Assembly: GCA_964525175.1 (NCBI GenBank)
Contig: CAZGFB010000001.1
Coordinates: forward strand, 1 to 34,662
Direction: 5' to 3'
From: an uncultured Candidatus Saccharibacteria bacterium
Lineage (GTDB): Bacteria; Patescibacteriota; Minisyncoccia; Phycocordibacterales; CAIZIN01
DNA length: 34,662 nucleotides
The translations under genes and the position numbers were made by a program. The notes beneath the pieces are model-generated. The model saw nothing but the letters and a program-made list of their open reading frames with translations, was not told the DNA's origin and did no database searches. Shown piece by piece: positions 3,919-32,315 of the stretch; within the stretch, counting starts at the first letter, position 1, and every line of letters starts with the position of its first letter.

Positions 3919-3926
3919 TACTCATC

Positions 3927-6677: not shown

Positions 6678-7961
6678 ATGTTTAAATTTAATTGGAAATA
6701 TAAAAAAATTACAAAGAGTGTGGGGCCGGGATTAATTACTGGCGCCGCCGATGATGATCCTTCAGGTATTGCCACATACAGCCAGACAGGAGCACAATTT
6801 GGTTATGGGCAACTTTGGACAGTTATTTTTATGTTGCCTTTAGTAACTGCGATTCAAGAAGCTTGCGCAAGAATCGGCGCCGTGACAGGAAAGGGGATAG
6901 CTACTGTTATTCGCGAGAATTATTCGAAAAAAGTTTTATACGTAGCTGTGTTTCTTGTTTTGATTGCAAATACTATAAATATTGGTGCGGATATCGGGGC
7001 GATGGCTGCCGCTGCGGGTTTAATTATTCCTCTTCCTTTTGTTCTTCTTGCGTTAGGCTTCACGACTTTAATTTTGGTTTTAGAAATTTTTGTTTCTTAC
7101 AAAAATTATGCAAAACTTCTCAAATGGTTGGCTCTTGCACTCTTCTCTTATGTGCTTACTGTGTTTATTGTAAAACAGCCATGGAGTGAAATTTTACATG
7201 CGACATTTGTCCCGCATTTTGAGTTTACTTTTGCGTTTCTTTTCATTATTACTGGAGTGTTGGGCACTACAATTTCTCCGTATATGTTTTTCTGGGAGGC
7301 TTCAGAAGAAGTTGAGGAGGAGCATAAGAAAAATATGATTCATAATGGTAAGCCTGCTTTGACAAAATCTTTTATGAAGTCGATTCGTTTGGATAATGCG
7401 ATTGGGATGATTTCCTCACAAATTGCAACATGGTGTATTATCGTTGTTTCCGCCACGGTACTGCATAACAATGGCGTCACAAATATTGCAACTGCTGCAG
7501 ACGCGGCTCGAGCACTCGAACCGCTTGTTCAAACATTTCCATATGCAGGCTTTTTAGCAAAGTTACTATTTGCTGTTGGGGTTATCGGATTGGGCTTACT
7601 TGCTGTGCCTGTACTTTCAGCTTCAGCTTCTTATGCAATTTCAGAGGCTTTTTCTTGGCGAGAAGGTTTAAACCAGAAATTTAAAAGAGCTCACGGATTT
7701 TATGGAGTTATTACCGTTGCAACTTTGATCGGGCTCATGATTAATTTTATTGGTATAGACCCTGTGCGAGCGCTTGTGATTACTGCTGTGATTAATGGAA
7801 TTATTGCTGTACCTCTTATTTTCTTAATTGCAAAAATTGCCTCAAATGAAAAAATTATGGGAGAGTATAAAAGTAGTAAGCTTTCAAGTACTCTTGTTTG
7901 GTTAACATTTTTCTTAATGGCCACCGCCGTGGTTGCGATGTTTATTGCGTTTTTGATATAA
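6678..7961 (+). CDS. NRAMP-family divalent metal cation transporter
   Basis: 427-aa polytopic protein with N-terminal GPGLITGAADDDPSGIATYSQTGAQFGYGQLW, typical of the NRAMP/MntH-related family. Confidence 0.88.
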   Translation: MFKFNWKYKKITKSVGPGLITGAADDDPSGIATYSQTGAQFGYGQLWTVIFMLPLVTAIQEACARIGAVTGKGIATVIRENYSKKVLYVAVFLVLIANTINIGADIGAMAAAAGLIIPLPFVLLALGFTTLILVLEIFVSYKNYAKLLKWLALALFSYVLTVFIVKQPWSEILHATFVPHFEFTFAFLFIITGVLGTTISPYMFFWEASEEVEEEHKKNMIHNGKPALTKSFMKSIRLDNAIGMISSQIATWCIIVVSATVLHNNGVTNIATAADAARALEPLVQTFPYAGFLAKLLFAVGVIGLGLLAVPVLSASASYAISEAFSWREGLNQKFKRAHGFYGVITVATLIGLMINFIGIDPVRALVITAVINGIIAVPLIFLIAKIASNEKIMGEYKSSKLSSTLVWLTFFLMATAVVAMFIAFLI

Positions 7962-7962
7962 A

Positions 7963-8083
7963 GAATTATGAATCGACACAAAATAAGGAGTGGAGCGACT
8001 ATATTTTGTGTCGTCTTCGCGAATGCGGGGATCCAGGTCGATTCTGATTTTTCAGACTGGATTCCGGCCTTCGCCGGAATGAC
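7963..8083. repeat. Composite hairpin repeat (AT-rich motif + H hairpin + two inverted short units)
   Basis: GAATTATGAAT; H hairpin CGACACAAAATA-N16-TATTTTGTGTCG (7974..8013); unit GTCGTCTTCGCGAATGCGGGGATCCAGGTC (8010..8039); inverted unit CTGGATTCCGGCCTTCGCCGGAATGAC (8057..8083). Confidence 0.9.
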
Positions 8084-8250
8084 AGACGACATTTTTTTGA
8101 ATTTTGAACATTTGGATTTGTTTCGGATTTCGAATTTAGATATACTGTATCGCCAAAATAGCTAGTAAATTAGCCAATATTAGGACATATTTAATATATG
8201 TGTTACACTCAAAAAGTCGTTTTAATAGAAACCTAACTATAAACAAAATT

Positions 8251-9780: not shown

Positions 9781-9853
9781 GTCATCCTCGTGTAGTCACG
9801 GGGATCCAAGTCCTGAATTTTCAGACTGGATTCCGGACTAAATCCGGAATGAC
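9781..9853. repeat. Composite hairpin repeat (two inverted short units)
   Basis: GTCATCCTCGTGTAGTCACGGGGATCCAAGTC + CTGAATTTTCAGA + CTGGATTCCGGACTAAATCCGGAATGAC. The second unit is the exact reverse complement of 8471..8498. Confidence 0.9.
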
Positions 9854-12168: not shown

Positions 12169-12213
12169 AAAACTTGTGGTTATGTAATTAAAAGTTTGGT
12201 ATGATTATATCGT

Positions 12214-12915
12214 ATGAACAGAGCCTTTGATTTTTCGATTGATGAATTTTATCACATCTATAGCCGGGGTGTTGATAAAAGAATTATTTTTCTCGAAACT
12301 TGTGATAAAGATAGGTTTGTAAAATTACTATACCTTTGTAATGGAGACAAACCAACTGTTTTTAAATCAATCCAAGGGGAGACCTTGGATAAAATTGATG
12401 TGGGTAAAAAGATAGTTTCTATAGGTGCATATTGCTTGATGGATAATCATTTTCATATTCTACTTAAGGAAATTGAGGAGGGTGGTATCAGTAAATTCAT
12501 GATGAGACTTCTAACAGCTTATTCAATGTATTTTAATAAAAAAAATAAAAGGACAGGCTCTTTGTTTGAAAGTGAATTTAAAGCAAAACATCTTGATACT
12601 GACGAATATTTAAAATATATTCTCTCATATATACATTTAAATCCGATAAAGATGATCCAACCTAATTGGAAAGAAGATGGTATTTTTGATAAAACTAAAG
12701 CAAAATTATTTTTAGATAAGTATAATTATTCTAGCTATTCTGATTACTTAGGCGCAGAAAGGGAAGAGGGGTTAATATTAGATAAAAAAGGATTACCTGA
12801 ATATTTTGCTGAATTTAAGGTTTTTGAGGATTTTATAGATGAATGGCTGTCTTTTATTCCTGACTCAGAAATCCAAGGTCTCCCCTTGGAAATTCCAAGG
12901 GGAGACCTTGGATAG
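12214..12915 (+). CDS. REP-associated tyrosine transposase (RAYT; IS200/IS605 Y1 family)
   Basis: YHIYSRGVDKRIIF, HUH motif in AYCLMDNHFHILL, TGSLFESEFKAKHL and catalytic-Tyr motif YILSYIHLNPIK. The last ~15 codons are translated REP sequence. Confidence 0.8.
   Translation: MNRAFDFSIDEFYHIYSRGVDKRIIFLETCDKDRFVKLLYLCNGDKPTVFKSIQGETLDKIDVGKKIVSIGAYCLMDNHFHILLKEIEEGGISKFMMRLLTAYSMYFNKKNKRTGSLFESEFKAKHLDTDEYLKYILSYIHLNPIKMIQPNWKEDGIFDKTKAKLFLDKYNYSSYSDYLGAEREEGLILDKKGLPEYFAEFKVFEDFIDEWLSFIPDSEIQGLPLEIPRGDLG
12371..12389. repeat. Single REP hairpin inside the RAYT coding sequence
   Basis: TCCAAGGGGAGACCTTGGA, encoding part of SIQGETLDK, within the loop preceding the HUH motif. Confidence 0.85.
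12872..12912. repeat. REP doublet (right flank of RAYT)
   Basis: TCCAAGGTCTCCCCTTGGA-AAT-TCCAAGGGGAGACCTTGGA, same orientation as the left doublet. Confidence 0.9.
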
Positions 12916-13360: not shown

Positions 13361-13657
13361 GCAGATGATTTAAAGAAACAATATTCGTATCTATTTCCAA
13401 ATGAAAATCAAATAGACACAAAAGCAAAAGAGACTTCACTTTCCCCAGCGTTTAATCGAGATCTTAAATTTGGTATGACAGGAGCGGATGTTAAGAAACT
13501 TCAACAATATTTAAACAATAATGGATATGTCGTTGCTAAAACAGGAGCTGGATCTAAAGGAAAAGAGACGACAACATTTGGACCTGCAACACGCTCAGCT
13601 TTAATTAAATTTCAAAAGGCAAACAAAATTACACCAGCAATCGGATATTTTGGTCCA
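13361..13657 (+). repeat. 297-nt near-identical direct repeat (copy 1), PG-binding domain coding
   Basis: Aligns without gaps to 17625..17921 with about 5 mismatches by eye. Weaker similarity extends upstream to about 13295 / 17559. Confidence 0.9.
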
Positions 13658-16800: not shown

Positions 16801-17957
16801 TTGATGGAGCTACTGCAACAACATTAAATGACACAGGTTTAAATCCTTTGTCGACATACTATTACACACTTCAAACGACAGACAGCAACGGATTTTCAGC
16901 ACTTAGTAGTCCTGTTGAGGTTGGTCCTGCTTCAAACGACGCTACTCTTTCTGATTTAGTTATAAGTCAAGGAACTCTAAGTCCGGTATTTTCTTCAAGT
17001 ACAACTTCATACACCGTTGATGTTTTAAATGACGTCACAAGTTTGACTGTTACTCCAACTGCAAATCAGGCAAATGCAACAATCACAGTGAATGGTGAGG
17101 CCGTTAATAGTGGTGAAACATCAAGCCTAATAACATTAAATGTTGGTGACAACACTGTTTTGACGGTAACACTTGCTCAGGATGAGTCAACAACCAGAAC
17201 ATATACAATAACTGTAACAAGAGGGGCTGTAATAGTTATTCCACCAACATTAACCGTTCAAGACGCTTCATTGGTTGCAACGAGTTCCGCTGTCTTTAAT
17301 GGAACTATCACAGTTGATGGATATGCCTCTTCAACTATTGTTGGTTTTAATTATGGAACAACATTAGCATATGGTAGTACAGCTTCAACTACTGGAACAT
17401 TTGGTACAGAAACTTTCTCTAAAACAGTTACAGACCTGCTTCCAAATACTCTCTATCACTTTCAGGCTTTTGCAGAAAATAGTGCAGGGGTCGGAACATC
17501 AAGTGATGCTACAACTACCACCTCAGCACTTCCTGTATCTCCGGTACAAAGCACAACCAGATCCCAGGGTAGCTCAGTACAAAGCAGGCTTAAAAACCTA
17601 ATTTATATGGGCAAAACCCAAGCGGCAGATGATTTAAAGAAACAATATTCCTATCTATTTCCAAATGAAAATCAAATAGACACAAAAGCAAAAGAGACTT
17701 CACCTTCCCCAGCGTTTACTCGAGATCTTAAATTTGGTATGACAGGAGCGGATGTTAAGAAACTTCAACAATATTTAAACAATAATGGATATGTCGTTGC
17801 TAAAACAGGAGCTGGATCTAAAGGAAAAGAGACGACAACATTTGGACCTGCAACACGCTCAGCTTTAATTAAATTTCAAAAAGCAAACAAAATTACTCCA
17901 GCAATCGGATATTTTGGTCCAAAAACACGAGGTGTGGTGGAGAAATCTGCTTTGTAA
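13887..17957 (+). CDS. Large secreted/cell-surface multidomain protein with SGNH (GDSL) hydrolase and C-terminal peptidoglycan-binding domain
   Basis: Signal/anchor segment (VKTFVIFFVFLLFFVVRVEKIHA). About 650 aa Gly/Thr/Ser/Asn-rich repetitive region (beta-helix-like). SGNH blocks GDSITQGG (GDS at 16059..16067), GISGST, YGTNDV and DGVHPLP. FN3-like segments, a cadherin-like/Big segment (ATLSDLVISQGTLSPVFSSSTTSYTVDV) and a PG_binding_1-like C-terminus. Confidence 0.85.
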   Translation: MNEKTYISQKSVQSSNLGYERENSSRSKFKLSLVKTFVIFFVFLLFFVVRVEKIHAAQITVYATANGVKWMGTNAGWNTNPDGVSGTFYSNPQNNSTDTFIVDLNGKSGISIDTDIVVDKIQDSSATASVSLNAPRTISVLNGGIYYSGANTGGLISSSYNLTVLGTVTSAVGGKRVIITSGTASLTINAGVGNTAVLNQGTSYVINHAGSGQITVIGKVVGSTTLAAIYVTTASNQLYYNPGYDVFSDGGASAGGRSLQNTSGTIVAVGNISGTSANGSSIEMIRNDGGTFELIGNIAITGSAVRGIWNRTGAVAHVYGNVDVSGSTGASYGVWNQSVTTSNTITGNLSNPSGSPTAVAAFSSAGMVTIYGTKTGSGTVNSATYTTMATTYVSVSPASLPAGATGYLDTSITGVGTTWNGSETPTINNSVSSITAVSSGEWTTTDGTHATLPLQNSATSSFGAFSITIGTATSGPLAVFSPSHILSQTTGATSNSYNLTITGINTLWAMDIAKGNHTASNLFSASTGGTISNVLVSNDNTVTLTLATDATQRVITITDNSTNQTSAFDTNNILTYDLSPTGGNVNNYIMIEGGMRWDGGRWISTALTSGAGTALGAVRFVGKINKIDGYISQTGSAGAGNLVILNIDGENGPTYSVPYVVGGAFPNAWLTMFSGLDDTATHTYMLIWPNGEVVGNPTIGKIRTTGGTGISTTALVPRPVLAVYGDSITQGGAYESSPHNSTLYYAYLLAKKLNYQVVNLGISGSTVSSLTHGGLNPTTKNGVSRTADITSLNPKASIVLILYGTNDVTFNANQGGTPTEANFRADYASMLAGIRAGNPNALIISERILMTSRVDEATRNTWSQTDIAAAVSAQSDPKILYMHGGWDNYQDTTGSDGVHPLPSKNQDIADGMYSDIISAISTTDSIKVATTTLTSRGGTSATITSAGGIHGTAPYTYQWLRSATSSWSGFQVDGATATTLNDTGLNPLSTYYYTLQTTDSNGFSALSSPVEVGPASNDATLSDLVISQGTLSPVFSSSTTSYTVDVLNDVTSLTVTPTANQANATITVNGEAVNSGETSSLITLNVGDNTVLTVTLAQDESTTRTYTITVTRGAVIVIPPTLTVQDASLVATSSAVFNGTITVDGYASSTIVGFNYGTTLAYGSTASTTGTFGTETFSKTVTDLLPNTLYHFQAFAENSAGVGTSSDATTTTSALPVSPVQSTTRSQGSSVQSRLKNLIYMGKTQAADDLKKQYSYLFPNENQIDTKAKETSPSPAFTRDLKFGMTGADVKKLQQYLNNNGYVVAKTGAGSKGKETTTFGPATRSALIKFQKANKITPAIGYFGPKTRGVVEKSAL
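17625..17921 (+). repeat. 297-nt near-identical direct repeat (copy 2)
   Basis: See 13361..13657. Confidence 0.9.
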
Positions 17958-17980: not shown

Positions 17981-19237
17981 TTATCTTGAAGCGTTTGTTC
18001 CCGCCACATATCCTGTGGTCCAACAAATTTGCAAACTGTAGCCACCTGAAGGGCGGTTTATATTTAGTATGTCACCTGTGAGGTAAAGATTTGGGAATAG
18101 TTCTGATTGCATAGTTTTAAAATCAACTTCTTCGAGTGCAACTCCTCCTGATGCAACGATTGCGTTTTCTGGACTTTGTAAACTTTCCACTTGCATACGT
18201 ACGTCTTTAAGTACGTGCATTAATTTAATTCGTTCATCTCTGGTGACACTATGACAGAACGTATCTCCATTTATGTCAGATTTTTTAATTACAATTTCAA
18301 CAAGTCCAGATGGTATCAGATCTAATATTGCATTTCTAAATTTCTTATTGGTATGTTTTTTGAAAATCTTTTGTAGTTCTTCGTTTAAAGAAGAAAAATC
18401 AAATTTAGGAAGAAGATCGAGGGAAATATAAACATCACCATTTGGTATTATCTCATTTATTTTTCTGCTCATGTTTAAAATAGTTGGTCCACTTACGCCA
18501 AAATGTGTGAAAAGAATTTTTCCCAATTTTGTTTCAATTTTCTTATCATCCTCTAATATAGATATTTTAACTTCCGGCAAAGTAACGCCTTGGAGTTCTT
18601 TTACCCAGCTTTCTTTTATGTTTATAGGTACAAGTGCGGAATCGGGTTTTATAATTGTGTGGCCGAGCTTTTTAAGCCATACAAAGCCATCTCCAGTTGA
18701 GCCTGTCTTTGGGTATGATTTACCACCTGTTGCAATTATGAAGGATTTTGCAAAGATTTCTTCGCCGTTTTCAAGCACAACAGATGTGACGTTTTTATCA
18801 TCACTTTTAATTTCTGAAACAGGGGAATTAGTTAGAATTTTTACATTTCCTGCTTTCATATATGAGAGAAGTACGTTTAAAACAGAAGAAGATGAATTGC
18901 TCTCTGGAAAAACTCTTTTTTCATTTTCAATCTTTGTTGGCATTCCTTTTGAGTTGAAAAAATCTAGAGTTTCCTTAACAGAAAATTGGGAAAAAGCAGA
19001 AAAAAGAAATTTTCCATTTTCTTTAAATTTATCCAAAAGTACGCGAGTATCAAATTCTGCATTAGTAACATTACATCTTCCGTTTCCTGTAATTAATAGT
19101 TTCTTTCCGAGACTTTCATTTTTTTCTATGAGAATGACTTTGGCGCCTAATTCTGCCGAACGACCAGCGGAGATCATTCCCGCTGGCCCACCGCCTATTA
19201 CTGCTACATCCCAGATTTCTTGTTTCATTGAGAGCAT
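17981..19237 (-). CDS. BaiN/RdsA (HI0933-like) NAD(P)/FAD-dependent flavoprotein
   Basis: VAVIGGGPAGMISAGRSAELGAKVILIEKNESLGKKLLITGNGRCNVTN is the family-typical N-terminus. 418 aa. Confidence 0.88.
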   Translation of the reverse strand: MLSMKQEIWDVAVIGGGPAGMISAGRSAELGAKVILIEKNESLGKKLLITGNGRCNVTNAEFDTRVLLDKFKENGKFLFSAFSQFSVKETLDFFNSKGMPTKIENEKRVFPESNSSSSVLNVLLSYMKAGNVKILTNSPVSEIKSDDKNVTSVVLENGEEIFAKSFIIATGGKSYPKTGSTGDGFVWLKKLGHTIIKPDSALVPINIKESWVKELQGVTLPEVKISILEDDKKIETKLGKILFTHFGVSGPTILNMSRKINEIIPNGDVYISLDLLPKFDFSSLNEELQKIFKKHTNKKFRNAILDLIPSGLVEIVIKKSDINGDTFCHSVTRDERIKLMHVLKDVRMQVESLQSPENAIVASGGVALEEVDFKTMQSELFPNLYLTGDILNINRPSGGYSLQICWTTGYVAGTNASR

Positions 19238-19251
19238 AGTAGCATAATGGG

Positions 19252-19337
19252 GAAGAATTATGAATTATGAATTAGGAATTATGAATGGGGAGTAAGAAAG
19301 ATGTTCGAATTTATTCTTAATTCATAATTCCTAATTC
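19252..19337. repeat. AT-rich inverted repeat (GAATTATGAATTAGGAATTATGAAT ... ATTCATAATTCCTAATTC)
   Basis: Left arm 19252..19286 and right arm 19313..19337, with about 18 bp pairing and a ~33-nt loop. Member of the family also at 20780..20887 and 31066..31144. Confidence 0.8.
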
Positions 19338-19387
19338 TATTCTAAAATTTCTTCCAAATTTTGGAATTTAGTGTATACTGTCTTCAT

Positions 19388-20229: not shown

Positions 20230-20793
20230 ATGCTTCTCAATCCAAAAATTCAAAAAGCAATTTATGTTGCTACGCATCAACATCGCCATCAAGAAAGAAA
20301 AGTGAGTGGAATGCCATATATTGTACATCCTTTTTCTGTTGCCTGGCTTTTGTCAGAGCAAACAAAAGATGAAGATATTATTGTAGCGGGCTTGCTTCAT
20401 GACGTGCTCGAGGATACAGACGGCTATGATTACAATGATATTGTGAGAGATTTTGGAGAAAGAGTTGCCGAAATTGTTTCCGAGGTAACAGAATTTAAAG
20501 ATTTGCCTTGGCATGAAAGAAAAGAGAAGTATATTAAAGTCTTTGAAAATTCATCACAAGAATCTTTGATGGTTGCAACAGCGGATAAGATTCATAATTT
20601 ATCTTCACTTTATGAGGAGATTTTGGAGACAGGAGAGAATCCCTTTGGTACTAAGTTTAAATCATATGATGAGTCAAAATGGTTTTATGAATCTGTATAC
20701 GAGGTGATGGAAAGAAGACTAGGGAATAAAATCCTTTTGGCAGAATTTAAGGAGATGTTGGAGTTGGTTTTTAAGGGTAGAATTAAGAATTAG
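20230..20793 (+). CDS. HD-domain protein, RelA/SpoT-type (p)ppGpp-hydrolase-like (small alarmone hydrolase-like)
   Basis: YIVHPFSVAWLL...GLLHDVLEDT...ATADKIHNL pattern of the HD_4/SpoT hydrolase domain. The ATG is 1 nt after the cupin gene stop. Confidence 0.8.
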   Translation: MLLNPKIQKAIYVATHQHRHQERKVSGMPYIVHPFSVAWLLSEQTKDEDIIVAGLLHDVLEDTDGYDYNDIVRDFGERVAEIVSEVTEFKDLPWHERKEKYIKVFENSSQESLMVATADKIHNLSSLYEEILETGENPFGTKFKSYDESKWFYESVYEVMERRLGNKILLAEFKEMLELVFKGRIKN

Positions 20794-20887
20794 GAATTAT
20801 GAATTATGGAAATACCGGGGCCGAATGGTCCGGCATTTTATAGTATTCTTAATCTATTCTTAATTCCTAATTCATAATTCTTAATTC
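20780..20887. repeat. AT-rich inverted repeat of the GAATTAAGAATTAGGAATTATGAAT family
   Basis: Left arm 20780..20809 overlaps the HD-gene stop codon; right arm 20845..20887. The loop contains a small GC hairpin (GCCG-AATGGTC-CGGC). Confidence 0.8.
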
Positions 20888-20952
20888 TGTTACGATTGAA
20901 TTTATGCTGTTTTTCGTGTATTATGAAATTATTATAAGTAACTTATAAAAAC

Positions 20953-21552
20953 ATGGACACAACAAAAAGAACCCCAATATCTATTTTAAAATGGTCTCTC
21001 ATTATCGGGATTGTAATAGTTCTCAATCTTTTCTATAACTACACACTCTCCCTTGTCTTTTCTGCTCCAGAATATAATACATATTGTGAACAAAAGCAGG
21101 TAAATATTTCTCCAGATACTCAAGAAAAATGTGTTGCTGAAGGCGGTGCCTGGACTCAATATCCCGCAAATGCGAATCCAAAACTAATCAACCAACCTGT
21201 TATTGTTGATCCAAACAACAACACTAACGTACTTGGTTATTGCGACCAGACATTTTCATGTAGTCAAAAATTTGAAGACGCAAGTAAAAAATACGACAGA
21301 AATGTTTTCATCACCCTTGTCGTTCTTGGCGTACTCACTTTTGTTGCCAGTTTGTTTTTTGTGAATTTTGAAATTGTTTCTGTTGCGCTTTCGATTGGTG
21401 CAGTGCTTGATTTTGTAATTGCTTCCATTCGTTATTGGGCAAGAGCAGATGATTTGATCAAAGTTTTAATTCTCGGTGTTGCTCTCGCTGTACTTATTTG
21501 GGTGGCAATTAAAAAATTTAACATCAAAGCTGAAAATGAACCCCGCGTCTAA
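20953..21552 (+). CDS. Hypothetical membrane protein (199 aa)
   Basis: N-terminal TM segment (WSLIIGIVIVLNLFYNY), a Cys-containing extracytoplasmic segment and three C-terminal TM segments. Overlaps the leuS start by 17 nt. Confidence 0.6.
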   Translation: MDTTKRTPISILKWSLIIGIVIVLNLFYNYTLSLVFSAPEYNTYCEQKQVNISPDTQEKCVAEGGAWTQYPANANPKLINQPVIVDPNNNTNVLGYCDQTFSCSQKFEDASKKYDRNVFITLVVLGVLTFVASLFFVNFEIVSVALSIGAVLDFVIASIRYWARADDLIKVLILGVALAVLIWVAIKKFNIKAENEPRV

Positions 21553-24500
21553 AGATTACGATCATAAAGAAATAGAGCCAAAGTGGCAAAAAGAATGGGA
21601 AGAGAAAGGCGCATTTAAAGCCTCGATTGACCTCTCTAAGCCTAAAAAATACGTACTCGATATGTTCCCGTATCCTTCGGGTGCGGGGCTTCATGTGGGG
21701 CATCCTCGTGGCTATATTGCCTCTGATGTTTATGCACGCTTGATGCGAACGAAAGGTTTTAACATTCTTCACCCGATGGGTTTTGACTCTTTTGGTTTGC
21801 CCGCAGAACAATATGCAATCAAAACAGGCAACAATCCAAAAATTTTTACAGATGAACTTGTAAAACAATATCGAAAACAATTAGACATAATTGGTTTTAG
21901 TTATGATTGGGAAAGACAAATAGCGACTCACAGACCTGAATACTACAAATGGACACAGTGGATTTTTTTGAAGCTATATGGATCTTGGTATAACAAAGCT
22001 CACGATAAAGCGGAAGCGATTGAAACTCTGGAAGCTATTTTTGAAAAAGATGGAAATGAAAATGTAAATGCAATTTGTGATTCTGATACAAAAATTGTAA
22101 CCGCTTCTGAGTGGAAAGAAATGGACACTTTAGCGAAACATCAATTATTGATGAAGTATCGATTGGCCTACGAAGGGATGAGCTCGGTAAACTGGTGCCA
22201 AGAGCTTGGAACAGTGCTCGCCAACGATGAAATTGTGGACGGTCCAGACGGCGCGCCTGTTTCAGAGCGTGGAGGCTTTCCTGTTGAGAAAAAAACTTTA
22301 AGACAATGGTTTTTAAGAATTACAGCTTATGCCGACAGATTGTTAAGTGGATTAGAAACAATTGATTGGCCTTCGCATATAAAAGAAATTCAAAAGAATT
22401 GGATAGGGAAATCTGAGGGTACTCAGATTAAATTTAAAATTAAAAATGAAAAATTTAAAATTGAGGCAGAAAAAGAAATAAATCTACCCAACCCTGTGTC
22501 ATCCTCGGGTACTCCCGGGGATCCAAGTCTGGATTCTTCTGTAGAAGTCTTCACAACCCGAGTAGATACTCTTTTTGGCGTCACCTATGTTGTTATTGCA
22601 CCAGAACATGAATTAGTACAAAAACTTTTAGAGTCTGTTTCAAACAAGGAGGAAGTTTTGAAATATATTGAAGAAGTAAAAAATAAAACAGCAGAAGATC
22701 GCACTGCTGAAAATAAAGAAAAAACAGGTGTGCCACTTAAAGGTGTAACAGCCGTAAATCCTGCAAATGGAGAAGAGGTGCCTGTGTGGATTGCTGATTA
22801 TGTTTTGGCTTCATACGGTACAGGTGCAGTGATGGCAGTGCCAGCTCACGATGATCGAGATTTTGCTTTTGCGAAGAAGTATGGATTGGAGATTAAGGAG
22901 GTTGTTATTTCAGAGAGGATTGATAAGAGAAATCCTCCAGTTGCCAATAAAGAAAAAGTTGAAAGAAAAAATGTTCAAGCGGTGGTATTTGATCCTAAAA
23001 CTGAGAAATATTTGTGTTTACATTCTATTAAACATCTGTGGAATACTTTTCCAATGGGTGGAGTGAACGACGGGGAAGATTTAATTGAAGCAGCTAAAAG
23101 AGAAGTTTTAGAAGAGACCGGATATAAAAATTTGATAAAAGGTAAAATTCTTGGAGGTTCCGTACGCGCTGAATATTTTGCTAAACATAAAGATCAAAAT
23201 AGAGTTTCATTCACAAATTTAGTTTATTTTGAATTAGATGGGTATAGTCAGGATGAAATTTCAGAAGAAGAAAAAGGAGAGAATGAAATATTATGGGTAG
23301 ATAAAGGCAACTTGAATTGTGATTTTATGTGTCATGCGGAAATGGATGTGTGGCTTGAGAGATTAAACAATGCTGAAGGTTCATACAACGATGACGGTGT
23401 GCTTGTAAATTCTCAAAAATTCGACAGCCTTTCTTCCGAAGAAGCACGAAAAGAAATTACGAAAGCTGTGGGTGGAAAATTTGTTACAAAATATAAAATG
23501 CGAGATGCTGTGTTTGCAAGACAAAGATATTGGGGAGAGCCGATTCCAATTATTCACGAAAAAGACGGAACGATAAAGGCTCTTTCTCCAAAAGATTTAC
23601 CGCTAGAACTTCCAGATGTTAAATCTTATGCTCCAACAGGTAATGCAGAATCTCCACTTTCAGCCGTTGAGGATTGGATGGAAAAAGGTTATGAAACAAA
23701 TACAATGCCGGGCTGGGCGGGTTCATCTTGGTACTTCCTACGATATATGGATCCTAAAAATGAAAATGCTTTTGCGAGTGAAGAAGCGTTAAAATATTGG
23801 GGGCAGGTAGATATGTATGTGGGAGGAGCTGAGCACGCAACAGGGCATCTTTTGTATTCAAGATTTTGGAATAAGTTCTTACACGATTTGAATCTTGTGC
23901 CAAATGAAGAACCTTTCAAAGTTCTTCGAAATCAAGGAATGATTCTCGGTGCCGATCATAAAAAAATGTCAAAAAGATGGGGGAATGTTGTTAATCCTGA
24001 TGATGTAGTAAATACATTTGGTGCAGATACACTTCGAGTTTTTGAAATGTTCATCGGGCCATTTGATTCACAACTTCCTTGGTCCACAGATGGTATAATT
24101 GGTTCAAGAAGATTTATTGAAAAAGTTTGGCGACTTCAGTATAAGGTTGTAGAAGATAACGGCGACCCTTCAAACTTTTTGCCATTACATCATTTGGATA
24201 CAAATGATGCAGAAAAGAATCAGACGGCAAAAACTTTTAAGGGCAAGTATCCTTACGAGCAAAGTCTCCATAAAACTATAAAAAAAGTTGGAGAGGATAT
24301 TGAATCATTTAATTTCAACACAGCAATTTCAGCAATGATGATTTGTTTGAATGAAATGGAAAAATCTGATAAAGTTTACAAAGAAGATTTCGAAAAATTT
24401 CTACAAATTCTTTCTCCATTTGCCCCACACATTACAGAAGAGATTTGGAGCACACTCGGTAAAGAGAAAATATTACAGGATTCTGGCTGGCCGGAATTTG

Positions 24501-24721
24501 ATGAAAGTAAGCTTACAAGTGAGACTGTAACAATGGTGGTACAGGTCAATGGAAAGGTTCGTGGGGAGCTAATTGTGCCTACAAATGTGGATGAAAATAC
24601 CGCATTAGAATTAGCAAAAAATTCTGAACAAGTCGCAAAATGGCTTGAAAAAGCTGAAATTATCAAGGTCGTTTTTGTCCCGGGTAGACTTGTCAACATT
24701 GTTGTCAAGGTTTCCCCTTGA
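21536..24721 (+). CDS. leuS: Leucine--tRNA ligase with extra in-frame insertions (repeat-derived peptide; Nudix domain)
   Basis: HIGH motif ([14 protein letters not shown]), editing domain ([44 protein letters not shown]), [10 protein letters not shown], KMSKS as KMSKRWGN and the C-terminal VQVNGKVRG domain. ATG 21536 ([21 protein letters not shown]) is preferred over GTG 21476. Confidence 0.95.
   Translation: [1061 protein letters not shown]
22498..22529. repeat. Short hairpin repeat unit inside the leuS coding sequence
   Basis: GTCATCCTCGGGTACTCCCGGGGATCCAAGTC followed by TGGATTC. Differs by one loop base from the intergenic unit at 32063..32093. Translated in frame as [14 protein letters not shown]. 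Confidence 0.9.
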
Positions 24722-25849: not shown

Positions 25850-25926
25850 GTCATTCCGAATTTAGTCCCGAATCCAGTCTCGCGCCCGCATTGTCATCTT
25901 CGCTGTACTCAGCGGAGATCCAAGTC
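25850..25926 (+). repeat. Tandem pair of short hairpin repeat units
   Basis: GTCATTCCGAATTTAGTCCCGAATCCAG, linker TCTCGCGCCCGCATT, GTCATCTTCGCTGTACTCAGCGGAGATCCAAGTC. Confidence 0.9.
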
Positions 25927-26737: not shown

Positions 26738-26809
26738 TGGGACTTATTCCTGAATCTTAAATCATAAATCTTAAATCATCAAAAATTATTTTGCTTCGCT
26801 TCTAATTTT

Positions 26810-29120: not shown

Positions 29121-29152
29121 CAAAAATGCTATTGTTTACGATAGCATTTTTG
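29121..29152. promoter_or_regulatory. Palindrome S1 (CAAAAATGCTAT-TGTTTACG-ATAGCATTTTTG); also a plausible mltG terminator
   Basis: 12-bp arms with a T-run after the hairpin. The core TGCTATTGTTTACGATAGCA recurs at 29216, 29703 (inverted) and 29748 (inverted). Confidence 0.6.
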
Positions 29153-29215
29153 ATATTTTATAAAATTTATATATACAAATATATAAATATAATATATATA
29201 TATTACTACCTAGGA

Positions 29216-29235
29216 TGCTATTGTTTACAATAGCA
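29216..29235. promoter_or_regulatory. Palindrome S2 (TGCTATTG-TTTA-CAATAGCA), candidate operator of the TrpR-like gene
   Basis: Perfect 8-bp arms. It overlaps the -35 position of the TATAAT at 29253..29258, which sits 6 nt before ATG 29265. Confidence 0.55.
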
Positions 29236-29264
29236 AATATTTTTTATTGGTTTATAATTATTCT

Positions 29265-29684
29265 ATGAAGAATCTCACTAATATTAGGATTGACAAAAAT
29301 GTTTATAATAAAATATATGGTCAATTTGTTTCCTCGTTGATTTGTCTGGATAATAAGGAAAAGAGTATATTATTTGTGAATGAATTATTTACTGAATCCG
29401 AAAAAATGATGCTAGCAAAAAGATTGGCTATCATAATAATGCTTAAAGAAGGATTATCAAACCGCGTAATCAGTAATTCTCTCAATGTTAGTCCCGCCAC
29501 TGTTACAAGAGCTTCTGTCGCTCTAAAAAGGAATTCATATAACATTATTGATGATTTCTTTGGGGATAAAGAAACAAGAAGAAAGATAATCAAAAAGATT
29601 CTGATTTTAAGACACGAACTTTTACCAACTCGGCCTAGAGGGGCCAGTTTTGAATACTTACGAAATAATAAGTATCCAAAATAG
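29265..29684 (+). CDS. TrpR-like (YerC/YecD family) HTH regulator
   Basis: LFTESEKMMLAKRLAIIIMLKEGLSNRVISNSLNVSPATVTRASVALK matches the Trp-repressor-like helix pattern. ATG 29265 is preferred over TTG 29247. Confidence 0.7.
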   Translation: MKNLTNIRIDKNVYNKIYGQFVSSLICLDNKEKSILFVNELFTESEKMMLAKRLAIIIMLKEGLSNRVISNSLNVSPATVTRASVALKRNSYNIIDDFFGDKETRRKIIKKILILRHELLPTRPRGASFEYLRNNKYPK

Positions 29685-29702
29685 AATCTGTGAATATAAA
29701 TA

Positions 29703-29724
29703 ATGCTATCGTAAACAATAGCAT
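29703..29724. promoter_or_regulatory. Palindrome S3 (exact reverse complement of the S1 core)
   Basis: ATGCTATCGTAAACAATAGCAT, 19 nt after the TrpR-like stop codon. Confidence 0.55.
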
Positions 29725-29747
29725 ATTAGAATTCATCATCTGGTGAA

Positions 29748-29767
29748 TGCTATCGTAAACAATAGCA
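29748..29767. promoter_or_regulatory. Palindrome S4
   Basis: TGCTATCGTAAACAATAGCA. Confidence 0.55.
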
Positions 29768-29890
29768 AATTTTAGAATGGAGATAAGAGAAATAAAGGGG
29801 CCTAATTAAAGTGTTTTGGATTTAGGACAAAATAACAAATAATGAACCGCTTTAGCTTTTGGTTAAATTTATGTTATAACTATTGGATTA

Positions 29891-31066
29891 ATGCAGAATT
29901 TAAAAGGTAAAAAGATATATGTTGGTCTTTCTGGTGGAGTGGATAGCTCTGTGGCTGCGGCTCTTTTGCTGGAAGCTGGCGCTCTCGTGACGGGAGTCTT
30001 TATAAAAGGCTGGTATCCGGAATTTTTGAAATGTGACTGGAAGGAAGAGAGGCGAGATGCGATGCGTGTGGCTGCACATTTAGGAATACCATTTTTGACT
30101 TGTGATGCGGAAGAGGCATATAAAAAGAATGTGATTGATTATATGATTTCTGAATATAAAGCAGGGCGAACTCCTAACCCAGATGTGATGTGTAATAAGT
30201 ATGTAAAATTTGGAACATTCTTTGATTTTGCTATGGAGCGTGGTGCGGATTTTGTGGCGACAGGGCACTACGCTCGCTCCGCTCGAATTAAAAATGAAAA
30301 ATTGACACAAAACAACGAGCGAAGCGACTATGTTTTGTGTCATCCTCGCGAATGCGGGGATCCAGGTTCGGATTCGGATGCTCAGCTATTGAAAGGGGAG
30401 GATGGGAATAAGGATCAGAGTTATTTCTTGTGGGCAGTATCAAAAGATCAATTAGAAAAAACTCTTTTCCCGATTGGAGAAATTGATAAATCTGAAGTTA
30501 GAAAAATTGCTAGAAAATATAAACTTTTTACTGGTGAAAAAAAAGACAGCCAAGGTTTATGTTTTCTTGGTAAGGTTGATTTGGATGAATTTTTATCTCA
30601 TTATATTCCAAAAAATAAAGGAGATGTCTTAAATAAAGACGGTGAAGTAATTGGCCATCATGACGGTGTGCATCTATACACATTGGGAGAAAGACATGGA
30701 TTTACTGTCACAAAAAAAGGCATAGAAGATAAGCCGAACTATATTGTTGCAAAGGACATAGAAAAAAACACACTTACCGTCTCTGATTCAATTATCGAGA
30801 TTCAAAAAACCTCCTGCTCTGGTGTTATTCTTCGTGAGGTGAATTGGATCATAAAACCGGAGTTAAATAAAGAATATATGTGTCGAGTTAGATATCGACA
30901 ACCACTTTTTCGATGCTCGGTTCATCGTGAGGCTAAGCCTCACGATGTAGAAGGTTGTATTGTGAATTTTGTGAACAAACAAGATTTTGTATCAACTGGC
31001 CAATCTCTGGTTTTGTATGACGGGGATATTTGTTTGGGAGGAGGAATAATTGAGGGTAGAATATAG
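29891..31066 (+). CDS. mnmA: tRNA-specific 2-thiouridylase MnmA with in-frame repeat insertion
   Basis: PP-loop VGLSGGVDSSVAA, EYKAGRTPNPDVMCNKYVKF, ATGHYAR, KDQSYFL, KKDSQGLCFLG and C-terminal GQSLVLYDGDICLGGGII. Confidence 0.93.
   Translation: MQNLKGKKIYVGLSGGVDSSVAAALLLEAGALVTGVFIKGWYPEFLKCDWKEERRDAMRVAAHLGIPFLTCDAEEAYKKNVIDYMISEYKAGRTPNPDVMCNKYVKFGTFFDFAMERGADFVATGHYARSARIKNEKLTQNNERSDYVLCHPRECGDPGSDSDAQLLKGEDGNKDQSYFLWAVSKDQLEKTLFPIGEIDKSEVRKIARKYKLFTGEKKDSQGLCFLGKVDLDEFLSHYIPKNKGDVLNKDGEVIGHHDGVHLYTLGERHGFTVTKKGIEDKPNYIVAKDIEKNTLTVSDSIIEIQKTSCSGVILREVNWIIKPELNKEYMCRVRYRQPLFRCSVHREAKPHDVEGCIVNFVNKQDFVSTGQSLVLYDGDICLGGGIIEGRI
30304..30367. repeat. H hairpin + short hairpin unit inside the mnmA coding sequence
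   Basis: GACACAAAACA-N16-TGTTTTGTGTC (30304..30341) and GTCATCCTCGCGAATGCGGGGATCCAGGT (30339..30367). Homologous to the intergenic composite at 7974..8039. Translated as ...TQNNERSDYVLCHPRECGDPG... Confidence 0.9.
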
Positions 31067-31144
31067 AATTATGAATTAAGAATTATGAATTCATTAAGAG
31101 GCGTGCTTCTGTTTTGTCCATTCTTAATTCCTAATTCCTAATTC
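31066..31144. repeat. AT-rich inverted repeat of the GAATTATGAATTAAGAATT family
   Basis: Left arm 31066..31094 begins at the last base of the mnmA stop codon. Right arm 31120..31144 ends 6 nt before TATAAT at 31151..31156. Confidence 0.8.
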
Positions 31145-31162
31145 TTGAAGTATAATACTTCT

Positions 31163-32036: not shown

Positions 32037-32062
32037 AAATGAGAAAGAATTCGATCCTTTCT

Positions 32063-32264
32063 GTCATCCTCGGGTAATCCCGGGGATCCAAGTTTGAATT
32101 CAGAATTTTCAGACTGGATTCCTGCCTTACAGGCACTGTACACTTTTCGCTTTTTGAATACAAAATGCTCAAAGTCTTGCGCTTGGGTCCCGCCCCAAGC
32201 TCACCTCCGCAGGAATGACAAGCGGGCTCAGACTTGGATCCCCGCTGAGTACAGCGAGGATGAC
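32063..32264. repeat. Full-length composite hairpin element (short unit + long-loop unit containing element A + inverted short unit)
   Basis: Left end GTCATCCTCGGGTAATCCCGGGGATCCAAGT (32063..32093). Right end is the inverted unit ACTTGGATCCCCGCTGAGTACAGCGAGGATGAC (32232..32264). The interior CTGGATTCCTGC...GCAGGAATGAC encloses the ~81-nt element A (32139..32219). Confidence 0.9.
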
Positions 32265-32315
32265 AAACAAGCGACCTTTATAATTTCCTAAAATCTGGTA
32301 TAAATAGAGGACTTG

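What the first reader, a model, noticed from the sequence alone, without database searches (positions are those of the whole stretch)
22438..22535. Intergenic hairpin repeat inserted in frame in the leuS editing-domain region (RPE-like selfish DNA in an essential gene)
GTCATCCTCGGGTACTCCCGGGGATCCAAGTC (22498..22529) differs only in one loop base from the intergenic unit at 32063..32093. It is followed by TGGATTC, the start of the usual inverted partner unit. It is translated as ...NPVSSSGTPGDPSLDSS... between GKSEGTQIKF and VEVFTTRVDT. E. coli LeuRS has about 10 residues there (from memory); this protein has about 35. The insert begins with ATTAAAAATGAAAAATT, the same 17-mer that starts the mnmA insert at 30287. 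In-frame palindromic elements inside protein genes are established for Rickettsia (RPEs). Here the same behaviour appears in an unrelated AT-rich lineage with a different repeat.
Basis: partly seen in the sequence, partly recalled or inferred. Interest (0 to 1): 0.7.

Follow-up and report, generated by a model that had tools for sequence, protein, structure and literature searches.

The report
Selfish hairpin repeat inside leuS
A small hairpin-forming repeat that litters the spaces between genes of this tiny-genome (Patescibacteria/CPR) bacterium has also been copied in frame into a surface loop of the essential leucyl-tRNA synthetase, the behaviour first described for Rickettsia palindromic elements, here in an unrelated lineage with a different repeat.

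Summary
22498-22529 matches intergenic copies at 32063-32094 (2 mismatches) and 9781-9812 (3 mismatches); none is expected by chance. It belongs to a hairpin family, GTCAT-stem-loop-stem-ATCCA, with 16 copies in the window. Fourteen are intergenic, one is in leuS and one in mnmA.

LeuRS carries 26 residues (nt 22463-22540) with no counterpart in T. thermophilus LeuRS. The loop is 27 residues longer than the baseline of 120 Paceibacteria homologues. A syntenic sister genome lacks the unit. AlphaFold2 models the repeat-encoded residues as a disordered loop in an otherwise confident model. leuS is under purifying selection.

Related genomes show the same behaviour in LeuRS (same loop, other mosaics), LigA, TruB, UvrC, RecO, IleRS and a flavoprotein. 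One 163-nt composite is 95.7% identical in two unrelated genes of two genomes.

One correction. The 17-mer ATTAAAAATGAAAAATT encodes native residues in both proteins and is not the start of the element. Only 22492-22531 is demonstrably repeat-derived.

Best reading: an RPE-like, REP/REPIN-like selfish element tolerated in permissive loops. How it moves is not resolved; a RAYT-like gene is present but is flanked by a different palindrome. It is a new member of a known kind, of moderate interest.

The parts
21536..24721 (+). leuS (LeuRS, 1061 aa), the host gene. It has a NUDIX domain nested in the editing domain.
   Evidence: Intact ORF. Pfam finds tRNA-synt_1g, the LeuRS editing domain at aa 333-467, NUDIX at aa 477-589, tRNA-synt_1 and Anticodon_1. 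Against the sister genome, aa identity is 96-98% and nt identity 91-94% outside the variable patches.
22463..22540 (+). In-frame insert (aa 310-335, EAEKEINLPNPVSSSGTPGDPSLDSS). The boundaries are uncertain by about 10 nt on each side, and the net gain is 23-27 codons.
   Evidence: HMMER aligns aa 209-309 to T. thermophilus LeuRS 147-243 and aa 336-457 to 243-362, leaving aa 310-335 unaligned. The loop is 27 aa longer than the 30-31 aa baseline. AF2 gives pLDDT <50 for aa 318-332.
22492..22531 (+). Core that is demonstrably repeat-derived: one GTCAT hairpin unit with its conserved flanks.
   Evidence: BLAST gives 97-100% matches of 32-38 nt to copies in the window (32062-32093, 9778-9812, 34254-34285) and in 28 related loci (L001-L004 and 24 of L006-L031). 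Nothing matches the part to its left.
22503..22520 (+). Hairpin: stem CCTCGGG / CCCGGGG (one T-G wobble) with loop TACT.
   Evidence: Folded as RNA and as DNA. Across the family, 107 of 129 GTCAT...ATCCA spans have a stem of at least 6 bp, against 0.4% of shuffles, and many stem variants are compensatory.
22521..22536 (+). ATCCA-AGTC-TGGAT(TC): the end of the unit joined to the first 7 nt of a truncated inverted partner unit.
   Evidence: A mini-hairpin appears in the folds. Intergenic copies show full inverted doublets...ATCCAAGTC-spacer-AGACTGGATTCC...GGAATGAC. The mnmA copy ends in the same way, GGTTCGGATTCG.
22439..22455 (+). The 17-mer ATTAAAAATGAAAAATT. This is native loop-coding sequence (IKNEKF), not part of the element.
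   Evidence: It aligns to T. thermophilus VEGKEV. KIKNxxxKIK is common in homologues that have no insert.
32063..32094 (+). The closest intergenic copy in the window. It lies in a mosaic of hairpin units spanning 32060-32270.
9781..9853 (.). An intergenic inverted doublet (REPIN-like): a unit at 9781-9808 (+), a palindromic spacer, and a unit at 9827-9853 (-).
30293..30370 (+). A second in-frame insert, in mnmA (aa 135-160, NEKLTQNNERSDYVLCHPRECGDPGS). It is a composite of a GACACAAAA hairpin and a GTCAT unit.
   Evidence: It is unaligned against MnmA structures 9hlv, 2hma and 2der. 30298-30370 matches intergenic composites at 7975-8038 (89%), at 9612-9663, and in L029 (90% over 67 nt). The mnmA loop is 58 aa against a 27-aa baseline.
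7958..8085 (.). The intergenic composite that is homologous to the mnmA insert, followed by its inverted partner unit.
   Evidence: (D5, I2)
24158..24238 (+). A second in-frame insert unique to this leuS (about 27 aa, NGDPSNFLPLHHLDTNDAEKNQTAKTFKG). It is an imperfect palindrome of about 80 nt and does not belong to the GTCAT family.
   Evidence: It is absent from the sister genome and from the 39 of the top 60 homologues whose flanking motifs could be located. The RNA fold is -26.7 kcal/mol with a 9-bp perfect stem. AF2 gives pLDDT <50 for aa 879-903.
12214..12915 (+). A RAYT-like Y1 (HUH) transposase gene. It is a candidate mobiliser of hairpin repeats, but no link to the GTCAT family has been shown.
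   Evidence: Pfam Y1_Tnp 3e-8. NCBIfam REP-associated tyrosine transposase 4.8e-10, below the curated cut-off. HFH and YIHLNP motifs are present. It is flanked by its own 42-nt palindromes at 12127-12168 and 12872-12913.

Best explanation
The segment is a copy of a lineage-specific, REP/REPIN-like hairpin repeat. A unit has conserved flanks, TGTCAT and ATCCA(A)GTC, around a stem that covaries. In intergenic DNA the units are assembled into mosaics of inverted doublets. One unit, about 30 nt of unique sequence to its left, and the first bases of a truncated inverted partner were copied into leuS. They landed in the beta-hairpin at the N-terminal edge of the CP1 editing domain, a few residues upstream of the TTRxDT editing motif. 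The net insertion is a multiple of three and has no stop codon. It is therefore translated as 23-27 extra residues that form a disordered surface loop, and the enzyme stays functional. The element is selfish or neutral DNA. Most insertions into coding sequence are removed by selection, and the survivors sit in a few permissive loops. Those loops are hit repeatedly and then remodelled by further repeat modules. Shown here: the homology, the insertion polymorphism, the position in the protein, the recurrence in other genes, and the purifying selection on the host gene. Inferred: that the insert is translated, that it is neutral, and how it moves. Movement could be ssDNA-hairpin transposition by a Y1/HUH (RAYT-type) enzyme, or copying from intergenic mosaics by recombination or template switching at AT-rich microhomology.
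For: - Match to the repeat: 0 expected by chance.
- Distribution in the window: 16 family members, 14 of them in the roughly 18% of the window that is intergenic.
- Hairpin: conserved, with compensatory stem variants; 107 of 129 spans have a stem of at least 6 bp, against 0.4% of shuffles.
- Insert position: between T. thermophilus LeuRS residues 243 and 244, inside the first 20 positions of Pfam's editing-domain model.
- Orthologues: 120 homologues have a baseline loop of 30-31 aa, and none carries this peptide. The syntenic sister genome L001 (LeuRS 82% identical) lacks the unit.
- Recurrence: L004 (LeuRS 69% identical, same sample) has a 163-nt composite of the same family in the same loop. 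That composite is 95.7% identical to an in-frame insert in L001's HI0933-like flavoprotein gene, which the window's orthologue lacks. L005 has a reversed unit in the same loop.
- Other host genes: units lie in frame inside LigA (two genomes), TruB, UvrC, RecO and IleRS.
- Reading frames: five of the six frames of a unit are open, and all five are seen among the in-gene copies (peptides; frames read by hand, no tool call). This argues against selection for one particular peptide.
- Structure: AF2 mean pLDDT is 84.6, with pLDDT <50 only at aa 1-3, 49-54, 318-332 (the repeat peptide), 813-817 and 879-903 (the second insert).
- Selection on leuS: in the N-terminal 290 codons there are 66 synonymous codon differences against 7 amino-acid differences from the sister genome.
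- Range: the exact unit occurs in only 4 MAGs of about 185,000 species representatives, with up to 15 loci in one MAG.
Against: No empty-site allele close enough to fix the boundaries was found. No target-site duplication is visible. The left 29 nt of the insert (22463-22491) match nothing else, so part of the extra loop may have another origin. The RAYT-like gene in the window is flanked by a different palindrome, and no transposase has been tied to the GTCAT family. Translation of the insert and its neutrality are inferred and have not been observed. Whether leuS is single-copy cannot be checked from one contig.
Confidence: 0.85

Rival explanations
1. The insert was copied by recombination, not transposition. 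Intergenic mosaics are flanked by AT-rich sequence such as AATTAAAAAT or AATTATGAAT, which resembles the K/N/I/E-rich coding sequence of these loops. Gene conversion or template switching at such microhomology would copy the neighbouring hairpin modules into the gene. This rival concerns only the mechanism and is compatible with the main reading.
For: The identical 17-mer lies just upstream of both the leuS and mnmA inserts. In L001 the leuS loop repeat, AAATTCGAAATTCGAAGCACGAAATCC..., overlaps the native KFEI codons, and the match to other copies starts inside them. No target-site duplication is seen. Closely related genomes carry different mosaics at the same site in leuS, mnmA and LigA, as expected if resident repeats recombine with other copies.
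Against: The 17-mer is low-complexity, and a 16-mer of it occurs at an unrelated site. In leuS it lies about 8 nt upstream of the unaligned insert rather than adjacent to it. No donor locus with the same junction was found.
Confidence: 0.35
2. The insert is adaptive. Either the extra loop next to the editing site modulates editing, tRNA handling or partner binding, or the mRNA hairpin regulates translation of leuS.
For: The loop lies a few residues upstream of the TTRxDT editing motif. Across Paceibacteria the same loop hosts whole extra domains, so the site can carry function.
Against: The sequence is lineage-specific and absent from an 82%-identical sister genome. It is predicted to be disordered. 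All five open frames of the unit are used in different genes, so no peptide is conserved. Copies are more than 30-fold depleted in coding DNA.
Confidence: 0.1
3. Assembly artefact: a repeat-induced chimera or mis-join within a metagenome contig.
For: Short dispersed repeats do cause mis-assemblies, and the contig comes from a metagenome.
Against: The reading frame is preserved exactly, and both flanks are collinear leuS. The identical 1061-aa protein is on two contigs of different length, 34,662 and 22,646 nt. A 28-nt repeat is shorter than a read. Analogous in-frame inserts occur in independent assemblies held by JGI, ENA and NCBI.
Confidence: 0.03
4. The loop is ancestral and only resembles the repeat by coincidence, or the intergenic copies derive from the gene.
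For: None beyond the fact that this loop varies among LeuRS sequences.
Against: None of 120 homologues has the peptide. The match is 30 of 32 nt with 0 expected by chance. There are 14 intergenic copies in the window and dozens in relatives.
Confidence: 0.01
5. The segment is removed after transcription or translation, like an intron or intein, so the protein is unaffected.
For: CPR bacteria are known to carry intervening sequences in rRNA genes (general knowledge, not tested here).
Against: No Rfam family matches, including group I and II introns. At 26 aa the segment is far too short for an intein. Every in-gene copy keeps the frame and avoids the one closed frame, a constraint that would not be needed if the segment were spliced out.
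Confidence: 0.02

Closest known systems
Rickettsia palindromic elements (RPEs; Ogata et al. 2000 Science 290:347, as summarised in PMC10969869)
   Same: These are dispersed palindromic repeats found in intergenic DNA and also inserted in frame into unrelated housekeeping genes. They are translated as extra peptides in positions compatible with the protein fold. They occur in a small, reduced genome.
   Different: The phylum is unrelated (Patescibacteria/Paceibacteria), and there is no sign of a sequence relationship: the exact unit occurs only in 4 CPR MAGs. The building block is a 26-30-nt REP-like hairpin assembled into mosaics of 40-165 nt, not a fixed element of 100-150 bp. Five reading frames are used, rather than one conserved peptide per family. 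The same loops are invaded repeatedly by different mosaics.
REP / REPIN elements with RAYT transposases (e.g. PMC3733652)
   Same: The units are imperfect palindromes of 20-40 nt with conserved flanks and covarying stems. Copy number is high, and most copies are extragenic. Inverted doublets are common. A RAYT-like Y1 transposase gene, itself flanked by palindromes, lies in the same window.
   Different: The units carry no GTAG or CGTC tag; the flanks are TGTCAT and ATCCAGTC. The RAYT-like gene is flanked by a different palindrome (CCAAGGTCTCCCCTTGG). REPs are by definition extragenic, whereas here a substantial minority of copies is intragenic and in frame.
Neisseria intergenic mosaic elements (NIMEs) with dRS3 repeats, and E. 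coli BIMEs (from general knowledge; not tested)
   Same: Intergenic mosaics are built from short hairpin or inverted-repeat units with variable modules between them. The core ATTCC(C)-N-GG(G)AAT resembles dRS3 (ATTCCC-N8-GGGAAT) in form.
   Different: The lineages are unrelated. The resemblance is recalled from memory and was not tested. NIMEs and BIMEs are not known for in-frame coding insertions.
Intragenic MITEs that make in-frame fusions (ERIC, pneumococcal BOX, Coxiella QMITE1, Anabaena MITEs; reviewed in PMC10969869)
   Same: Small non-autonomous repeats with terminal inverted repeats are occasionally tolerated inside ORFs. The 163-nt composite found here has inverted terminal units.
   Different: No target-site duplication and no cognate IS element have been identified. 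The units behave as modules rather than as one fixed element.

Membership tests
RPE-like in-frame palindromic elements (a behavioural class) | The same repeat is present both in intergenic DNA and inside ORFs. | tested here: met
   There are 14 intergenic and 2 intragenic copies in the window. In-gene copies in relatives were confirmed by Pfam.
RPE-like in-frame palindromic elements (a behavioural class) | The insertion preserves the reading frame, and the host gene remains under purifying selection. | tested here: met
   The 1061-aa ORF is intact. In the N-terminal 290 codons there are 66 synonymous against 7 non-synonymous differences from the sister genome.
RPE-like in-frame palindromic elements (a behavioural class) | Insertion polymorphism: orthologues lack the element. 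| tested here: met
   The sister genome L001 and 119 other homologues lack it.
RPE-like in-frame palindromic elements (a behavioural class) | The inserted peptide lies on the protein surface, away from the core fold. | tested here: met
   The insert sits between T. thermophilus LeuRS residues 243 and 244, in a beta-hairpin. AF2 gives pLDDT <50 at aa 318-332 in a model with mean pLDDT 84.6. Solvent exposure itself was not computed.
Rickettsia RPE families proper (RPE-1 to RPE-10) | Sequence homology to an RPE consensus. | tested here: not met
   This was tested only indirectly. The exact 28-nt unit occurs in just 4 CPR MAGs among 185,579 species representatives and in no Rickettsia genome. No RPE consensus was at hand for a sensitive comparison.
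REP / REPIN | A short (20-40 nt) imperfect palindrome, repeated, with a conserved structure. | tested here: met
   Units are 26-30 nt. 107 of 129 have a stem of at least 6 bp, with compensatory variants.
REP / REPIN | Inverted doublets separated by a short spacer (REPIN). | tested here: met
   Examples are 9781-9808 with 9827-9853, 8010-8035 with 8058-8083, and 32063-32090 with the TGGATTCC partner.
REP / REPIN | A conserved GTAG or CGTC tetranucleotide tag at one end. | tested here: not met
   The flanks are TGTCAT and ATCCA(A)GTC. The tags are defined in PMC3733652 (abstract).
REP / REPIN | A cognate RAYT gene flanked by the same REPs. | tested here: not met
   The RAYT-like ORF at 12214-12915 is flanked by CCAAGGTCTCCCCTTGG palindromes, not GTCAT units. 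The rest of the genome was not available.
MITE | Terminal inverted repeats. | tested here: met
   The 163-nt composite starts with TGTCATTCC... and ends with ...GAGGATGACA. The leuS copy has only one full unit.
MITE | Target-site duplication. | tested here: inconclusive
   No direct repeat is visible at the junctions in L001, L004 or the window. No clean empty site was available.
MITE | A parent IS element with matching terminal inverted repeats. | not tested
   An IS30-like gene lies just beyond the window on the JGI contig, but its ends were not available.
Intein / self-splicing intron | Splicing motifs or a catalytic RNA fold. | tested here: not met
   No Rfam match at E<=1 in 22380-22620. 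A 26-aa segment is too short for an intein.

The most novel reading that the evidence does not exclude
In Paceibacteria, hairpin repeats may do more than sit in proteins as tolerated junk. Permissive loops of aminoacyl-tRNA synthetases and other core enzymes may serve as recurrent landing pads. Resident repeats there would seed further recombination, and through it the capture of whole foreign domains. The same LeuRS loop carries alpha/beta-hydrolase, GNAT, Ham1-like, ASCH and extra Nudix domains, and other unidentified large inserts, in other lineages. In one case (L042) a hairpin unit sits exactly at the junction between LeuRS and the inserted hydrolase domain. Repeat-mediated domain accretion would then be a general route of protein innovation in CPR bacteria.
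Probability: 0.12. Interest if true: 0.8.

Novelty: new member of a known kind. Interest (0 to 1): 0.55.

Why it matters
In-frame invasion of essential genes by selfish palindromic DNA has been regarded as a peculiarity of Rickettsia, with scattered MITE examples elsewhere. It now appears in Patescibacteria with an unrelated REP-like repeat. It hits at least nine genes, mostly core ones: LeuRS, IleRS, MnmA, LigA, TruB, UvrC, RecO and an HI0933-like flavoprotein. This suggests the phenomenon is a general outcome when hairpin repeats proliferate in small genomes. There are three practical consequences. These inserts inflate and diversify CPR proteins and can mislead alignments, phylogenies and domain annotation. 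They mark loops that tolerate insertion, which is useful for engineering. They also offer strain-level markers. The coincidence with loops that host whole extra domains in related LeuRS enzymes raises a testable idea about how CPR proteins acquire nested domains.

Tried and rejected
1. The 17-mer as the left end of the element. Rejected. It aligns to native residues in LeuRS. In MnmA, 'ARIKNxK' is shared by homologues without the unit. A 16-mer of it occurs elsewhere by chance.
2. A search for an empty-site allele or another copy of the left part. The exact 29-mer AATCTACCCAACCCTGTGTCATCCTCGGG had 0 hits in metagenome contigs. The search for related loci with the editing-domain segment returned only relatives at or below 71% identity. 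Those loci served only to show that palindromic loop expansions recur in more distant LeuRS sequences.
3. Linking the RAYT-like gene to the GTCAT family. Its flanking palindromes are different, and no homologue was found in the 31 related loci.
4. Target-site duplications at the L001 and L004 composite insertions. None is visible.
5. Known RNA families. There is no Rfam hit in the window or at the insert.
6. Literature on in-frame repeats, MITEs or LeuRS-Nudix fusions in CPR/Patescibacteria. Nothing relevant is in the held library.
7. The DNA of the source JGI contig could not be fetched because the file is too large.
Full report

Yes. The 32-mer GTCATCCTCGGGTACTCCCGGGGATCCAAGTC at 22498-22529 recurs at 32063-32094 with 2 mismatches. 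It recurs again at 9781-9812 with 3 mismatches. No match appeared in 100 dinucleotide-preserving shuffles. The segment lies inside an intact ORF, 21536-24721, whose 1061-aa product is a leucyl-tRNA synthetase. It is read as ...KFKIEAEKEINLPNPVSSSGTPGDPSLDSSVEVFTTRVDT.

**2. What the repeat is**

- **Copy number and location.** A loose pattern (GTCAT, pyrimidine-rich arm, 8-22 nt, purine-rich arm, ATCCA) finds 16 units in the window. Fourteen lie in intergenic clusters at 3855-3881, 8010-8083, 8471-8671, 9781-9853, 25893-25922, 32063-32264 and 34173-34282. Two lie inside genes, leuS and mnmA. About 82% of the window is coding by my tally of the ORFs, so units are roughly 30-fold depleted in coding DNA.
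- **Structure.** When only the flanks GTCAT and ATCC[AG] are fixed, 107 of 129 spans in the window and related loci enclose a perfect stem of at least 6 bp. Only 0.4% of shuffled inner sequences do so. The stems come in many mutually compensating versions, such as CCGGC/GCCGG, CCCGC/GCGGG, CCTGC/GCAGG and CTCGA/TCGAG. The family is therefore defined by its structure.
- **Organisation.** Units often form inverted doublets around a palindromic spacer. They combine with other modules, such as a GACACAAAA...TTTTGTGTC hairpin and a GAGCTYGGGG...CCCRAGC hairpin, into mosaics.
- **Known families.** No Rfam family matches.
- **Range.** The exact unit occurs in only four MAGs among 185,579 species-representative genomes, with up to 15 loci in one MAG.
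- **Organism.** Names attached to the closest LeuRS and MnmA homologues place the organism in Patescibacteria/Paceibacterota.

**3. Where the insert sits in LeuRS**

HMMER aligns aa 209-309 to T. thermophilus LeuRS residues 147-243, ending ...FKIKNEKFKI = ...FPVEGKEVRI. It aligns aa 336-457 to residues 243-362, starting VEVFTTRVDT = IPVFTTRPDT. That leaves aa 310-335 (nt 22463-22540) without a counterpart.

Pfam's LeuRS editing-domain model resumes at its position 20 immediately after the insert. The site is therefore the beta-hairpin at the N-terminal edge of CP1, just before the threonine-rich editing motif.

Among the 120 best homologues, the NWIG...FTTRxDT stretch is most often 30-31 aa. 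Here it is 58 aa, and none of the other sequences carries this peptide.

An AlphaFold2 model built on 60 homologues is confident overall (mean pLDDT 84.6, pTM 0.76). It falls below pLDDT 50 at aa 318-332, which is PNPVSSSGTPGDPSL, exactly the repeat-encoded residues. These are flanked by strands 292-304 and 334-340.

**4.

The 17-mer ATTAAAAATGAAAAATT is indeed present exactly twice, at 22439 and 30287. It is probably not part of the element, for these reasons:
- In LeuRS it encodes IKNEKF. This aligns to native T. thermophilus residues and fits the KIKNxxxKIK pattern of many insert-free homologues.
- In MnmA the motif ARIKNxK is shared by homologues that lack the unit, namely P0122, P0126 and P0131.
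- A 16-mer of it occurs at an unrelated site in the sister genome.

BLAST against all related loci shows that only 22492-22531 is homologous to other copies. The 29 nt to its left (22463-22491) are unique.

Depending on whether the native loop had 10 or 14 residues (compare P0012-P0014, which end ...TSIEVFTTR), the net gain is 23-27 codons. Without an empty-site allele the ends cannot be fixed more precisely than about 10 nt.

Downstream, ATCCA-AGTC-TGGAT forms a mini-hairpin. The mnmA copy ends in the same way.

**5. Comparative evidence that this is a mobile insertion**

- **Sister genome L001.** L001 is syntenic with the window. Outside three variable patches its LeuRS is 96-98% identical in protein and 91-94% in DNA. 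It lacks the unit. Its own loop instead carries 13 extra residues encoded by a different dispersed repeat, AAATTCGAAATTCGAAGCACGAAATCC..., which recurs in nine other loci.
- **L004.** This relative comes from the same sample and its LeuRS is 69% identical. In the same loop it has a 163-nt composite bounded by inverted GTCAT units.
- **One composite in two unrelated genes.** That composite is 95.7% identical to an in-frame insert in L001's HI0933-like flavoprotein gene, which the window's orthologue (17981-19237) lacks. The two unrelated proteins share the peptide SVIPAEAGELGxGPERKDGGGRAESWSGDFSAEKYSGLQSENxNLDPRIREDD.
- **L005.** This LeuRS is 54% identical and has a reversed unit (WIPGQARDD) in the loop.
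- **Other host genes.** In the loci returned by the genome scan, units lie in frame inside genes confirmed by Pfam: LigA in two genomes (same loop, different mosaics), TruB, UvrC, RecO, and an IleRS.
- **Reading frames.** A unit has five open frames; the sixth contains TGA, from the reverse complement of GTCAT. All five are seen among the in-gene copies: VIPA..., SSSGTPGDPS/LSFQRR..., CHPRE......EDD and ...RMT (frames read by hand, no tool call). This fits random insertion followed by selection against stop codons and frameshifts. It does not fit selection for one peptide.
- **Selection on leuS.** In the N-terminal 290 codons there are 66 synonymous codon differences against 7 amino-acid differences from L001.

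**6. The mnmA insert**

MnmA aa 135-160 (nt 30293-30370) have no counterpart in the solved MnmA structures. Nt 30298-30370 match intergenic composites of a GACAC hairpin plus a GTCAT unit, at 7975-8038 (89%), at 9612-9663, and in L029 (90% over 67 nt).

At the same place, L001's mnmA carries a different palindrome with perfect 17-bp arms. P0127 carries the unit alone (CHSRECRNPG). The loop is hypervariable across Paceibacteria, from 27 to 62 aa.

**7. Mechanism**

It is shown that a dispersed, structure-defined repeat has been copied into permissive loops repeatedly and recently. Element copies are 96% identical even between genomes whose LeuRS proteins are only 69-82% identical to the window's.

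How it moves is inferred. There are two candidates:
- **ssDNA-hairpin transposition by a Y1/HUH enzyme.** The window encodes a RAYT-like protein at 12214-12915 with HFH and YIHLNP motifs. Pfam Y1_Tnp scores 3e-8. The NCBIfam REP-associated tyrosine transposase model scores 4.8e-10, below its cut-off. However, the gene is flanked by its own palindrome, CCAAGGTCTCCCCTTGG, and not by GTCAT units.
- **Recombination or template switching with intergenic mosaics at AT-rich microhomology.** This would fit the shared 17-mer, the overlap of L001's loop repeat with native codons, the lack of target duplications, and the different mosaics at the same sites in close relatives.

I cannot decide between them.

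**8. Comparison with what is known**

The behaviour is that of Rickettsia palindromic elements and of occasional intragenic MITEs (PMC10969869). The anatomy is closest to REP/REPIN elements. The GTAG/CGTC tag and a cognate RAYT were looked for and not found. Sequence membership in the Rickettsia RPE families is not supported.

The library searches found nothing describing such elements in CPR/Patescibacteria. I therefore classify the finding as a new member of a known kind.

**9. Rivals**

- **Ancestral loop or coincidence.** Excluded.
- **Assembly artefact.** Unlikely. The frame is kept, the same protein is on two contigs of different length, the repeat is shorter than a read, and analogous inserts occur in independent assemblies.
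- **Splicing.** Unlikely. There is no RNA-family match, the segment is too short for an intein, and the frame constraint is universal among in-gene copies.
- **An adaptive role.** This cannot be excluded, but nothing supports it.

**10. A wider pattern**

The same LeuRS loop holds whole extra domains in other Paceibacteria. Loops of 143-240 aa occur there, and the precomputed Pfam hits for those proteins include alpha/beta-hydrolase, GNAT, Ham1-like and ASCH domains, and a second Nudix-like segment.

In L042, a hairpin unit (CTGGATTCCCGACTCCGCGGGAATGA, read as LDSRLRGND) sits exactly at the 5' junction of an inserted hydrolase domain. Three other such loci show none. This is the basis of the speculative reading given in the section on the most novel reading.

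Noticed in passing
window 22964-23302 (LeuRS aa 477-589): A NUDIX domain (PF00293, 1.4e-11) is nested inside the LeuRS editing domain. Most of the 120 closest homologues carry it. Between the window and its sister genome this region is only 47% identical in protein (56% in DNA), while the flanks are 96-98% identical. That suggests cassette-like replacement or very fast evolution. No paper on a LeuRS-Nudix fusion was found in the held library.
   Followed up: partly
LeuRS homologues P0036, P0041, P0052, P0053, P0055, P0064, P0067, P0075, P0078 and others; loci L042, L056, L063, L102: The loop that carries the repeat here carries whole inserted domains of 143-240 aa in other Paceibacteria. The precomputed Pfam hits include alpha/beta-hydrolase, GNAT, Ham1-like, ASCH and a second Nudix. 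In L042 a GTCAT-type hairpin unit lies at the 5' junction of the inserted hydrolase domain.
   Followed up: partly
window 24158-24238: A second in-frame insert is unique to this leuS, between the catalytic core and the anticodon-binding domain. It is about 27 aa and is an imperfect palindrome of about 80 nt with a 9-bp perfect inner stem, unrelated to the GTCAT family. AF2 gives pLDDT <50 there. Homologues P0040 and P0044 have other palindromic-looking inserts at the same site.
   Followed up: partly
window 30293-30370 (mnmA): An in-frame 26-aa insert consists of a GACAC hairpin plus a GTCAT unit and is homologous to intergenic composites at 7975-8038 and 9612-9663. The sister genome has a different 17-bp-arm palindrome at the same site. 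The loop is hypervariable across Paceibacteria.
   Followed up: yes
window 12127-12915: A RAYT-like Y1 transposase gene is flanked by perfect 42-nt double palindromes at 12127-12168 and 12872-12913. The same 17-nt hairpin also occurs inside its own ORF (12372-12388, read as IQGETL), and its C-terminus is encoded by the downstream palindrome. The region from about 12.1 to 18 kb has no counterpart at the corresponding place in the sister locus L001.
   Followed up: partly
L001 5936-6151 (minus strand) vs window 17981-19237: The sister genome's HI0933-like flavoprotein is 59 aa longer because of a 163-nt composite repeat inserted in frame. That composite is 95.7% identical to the one in the leuS loop of a third genome (L004).
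   Followed up: yes
L030 4892-7999: An IleRS in a related MAG carries a histidine-phosphatase (His_Phos_1) domain nested in the synthetase, plus an in-frame doublet of hairpin units. This is another aaRS with both kinds of insertion.
   Followed up: no
window 13295-13594 and 17559-17858: A 300-nt direct repeat (93% identical) lies at the 3' ends of two neighbouring genes. Both encode a C-terminal PG_binding_1 domain, so this is probably a recent duplication or conversion of the domain-coding segment.
   Followed up: no
window 29125-29150, 29214-29239, 29702-29727, 29746-29771: Four copies of a 26-nt palindromic motif (AATGCTATCGTAAACAATAGCAT) lie in pairs on both sides of the small Trp-repressor-like gene (29247-29684). 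They may be operator sites.
   Followed up: no
window 3894-3933, 19243-19363, 20771-20895, 26746-26785, 31050-31166: AT-rich runs of a 7-8-nt period (AATTATG / AATTAAG / AATTAGG) occur in both orientations at gene boundaries. They often lie next to the hairpin mosaics. Their function is unknown.
   Followed up: no
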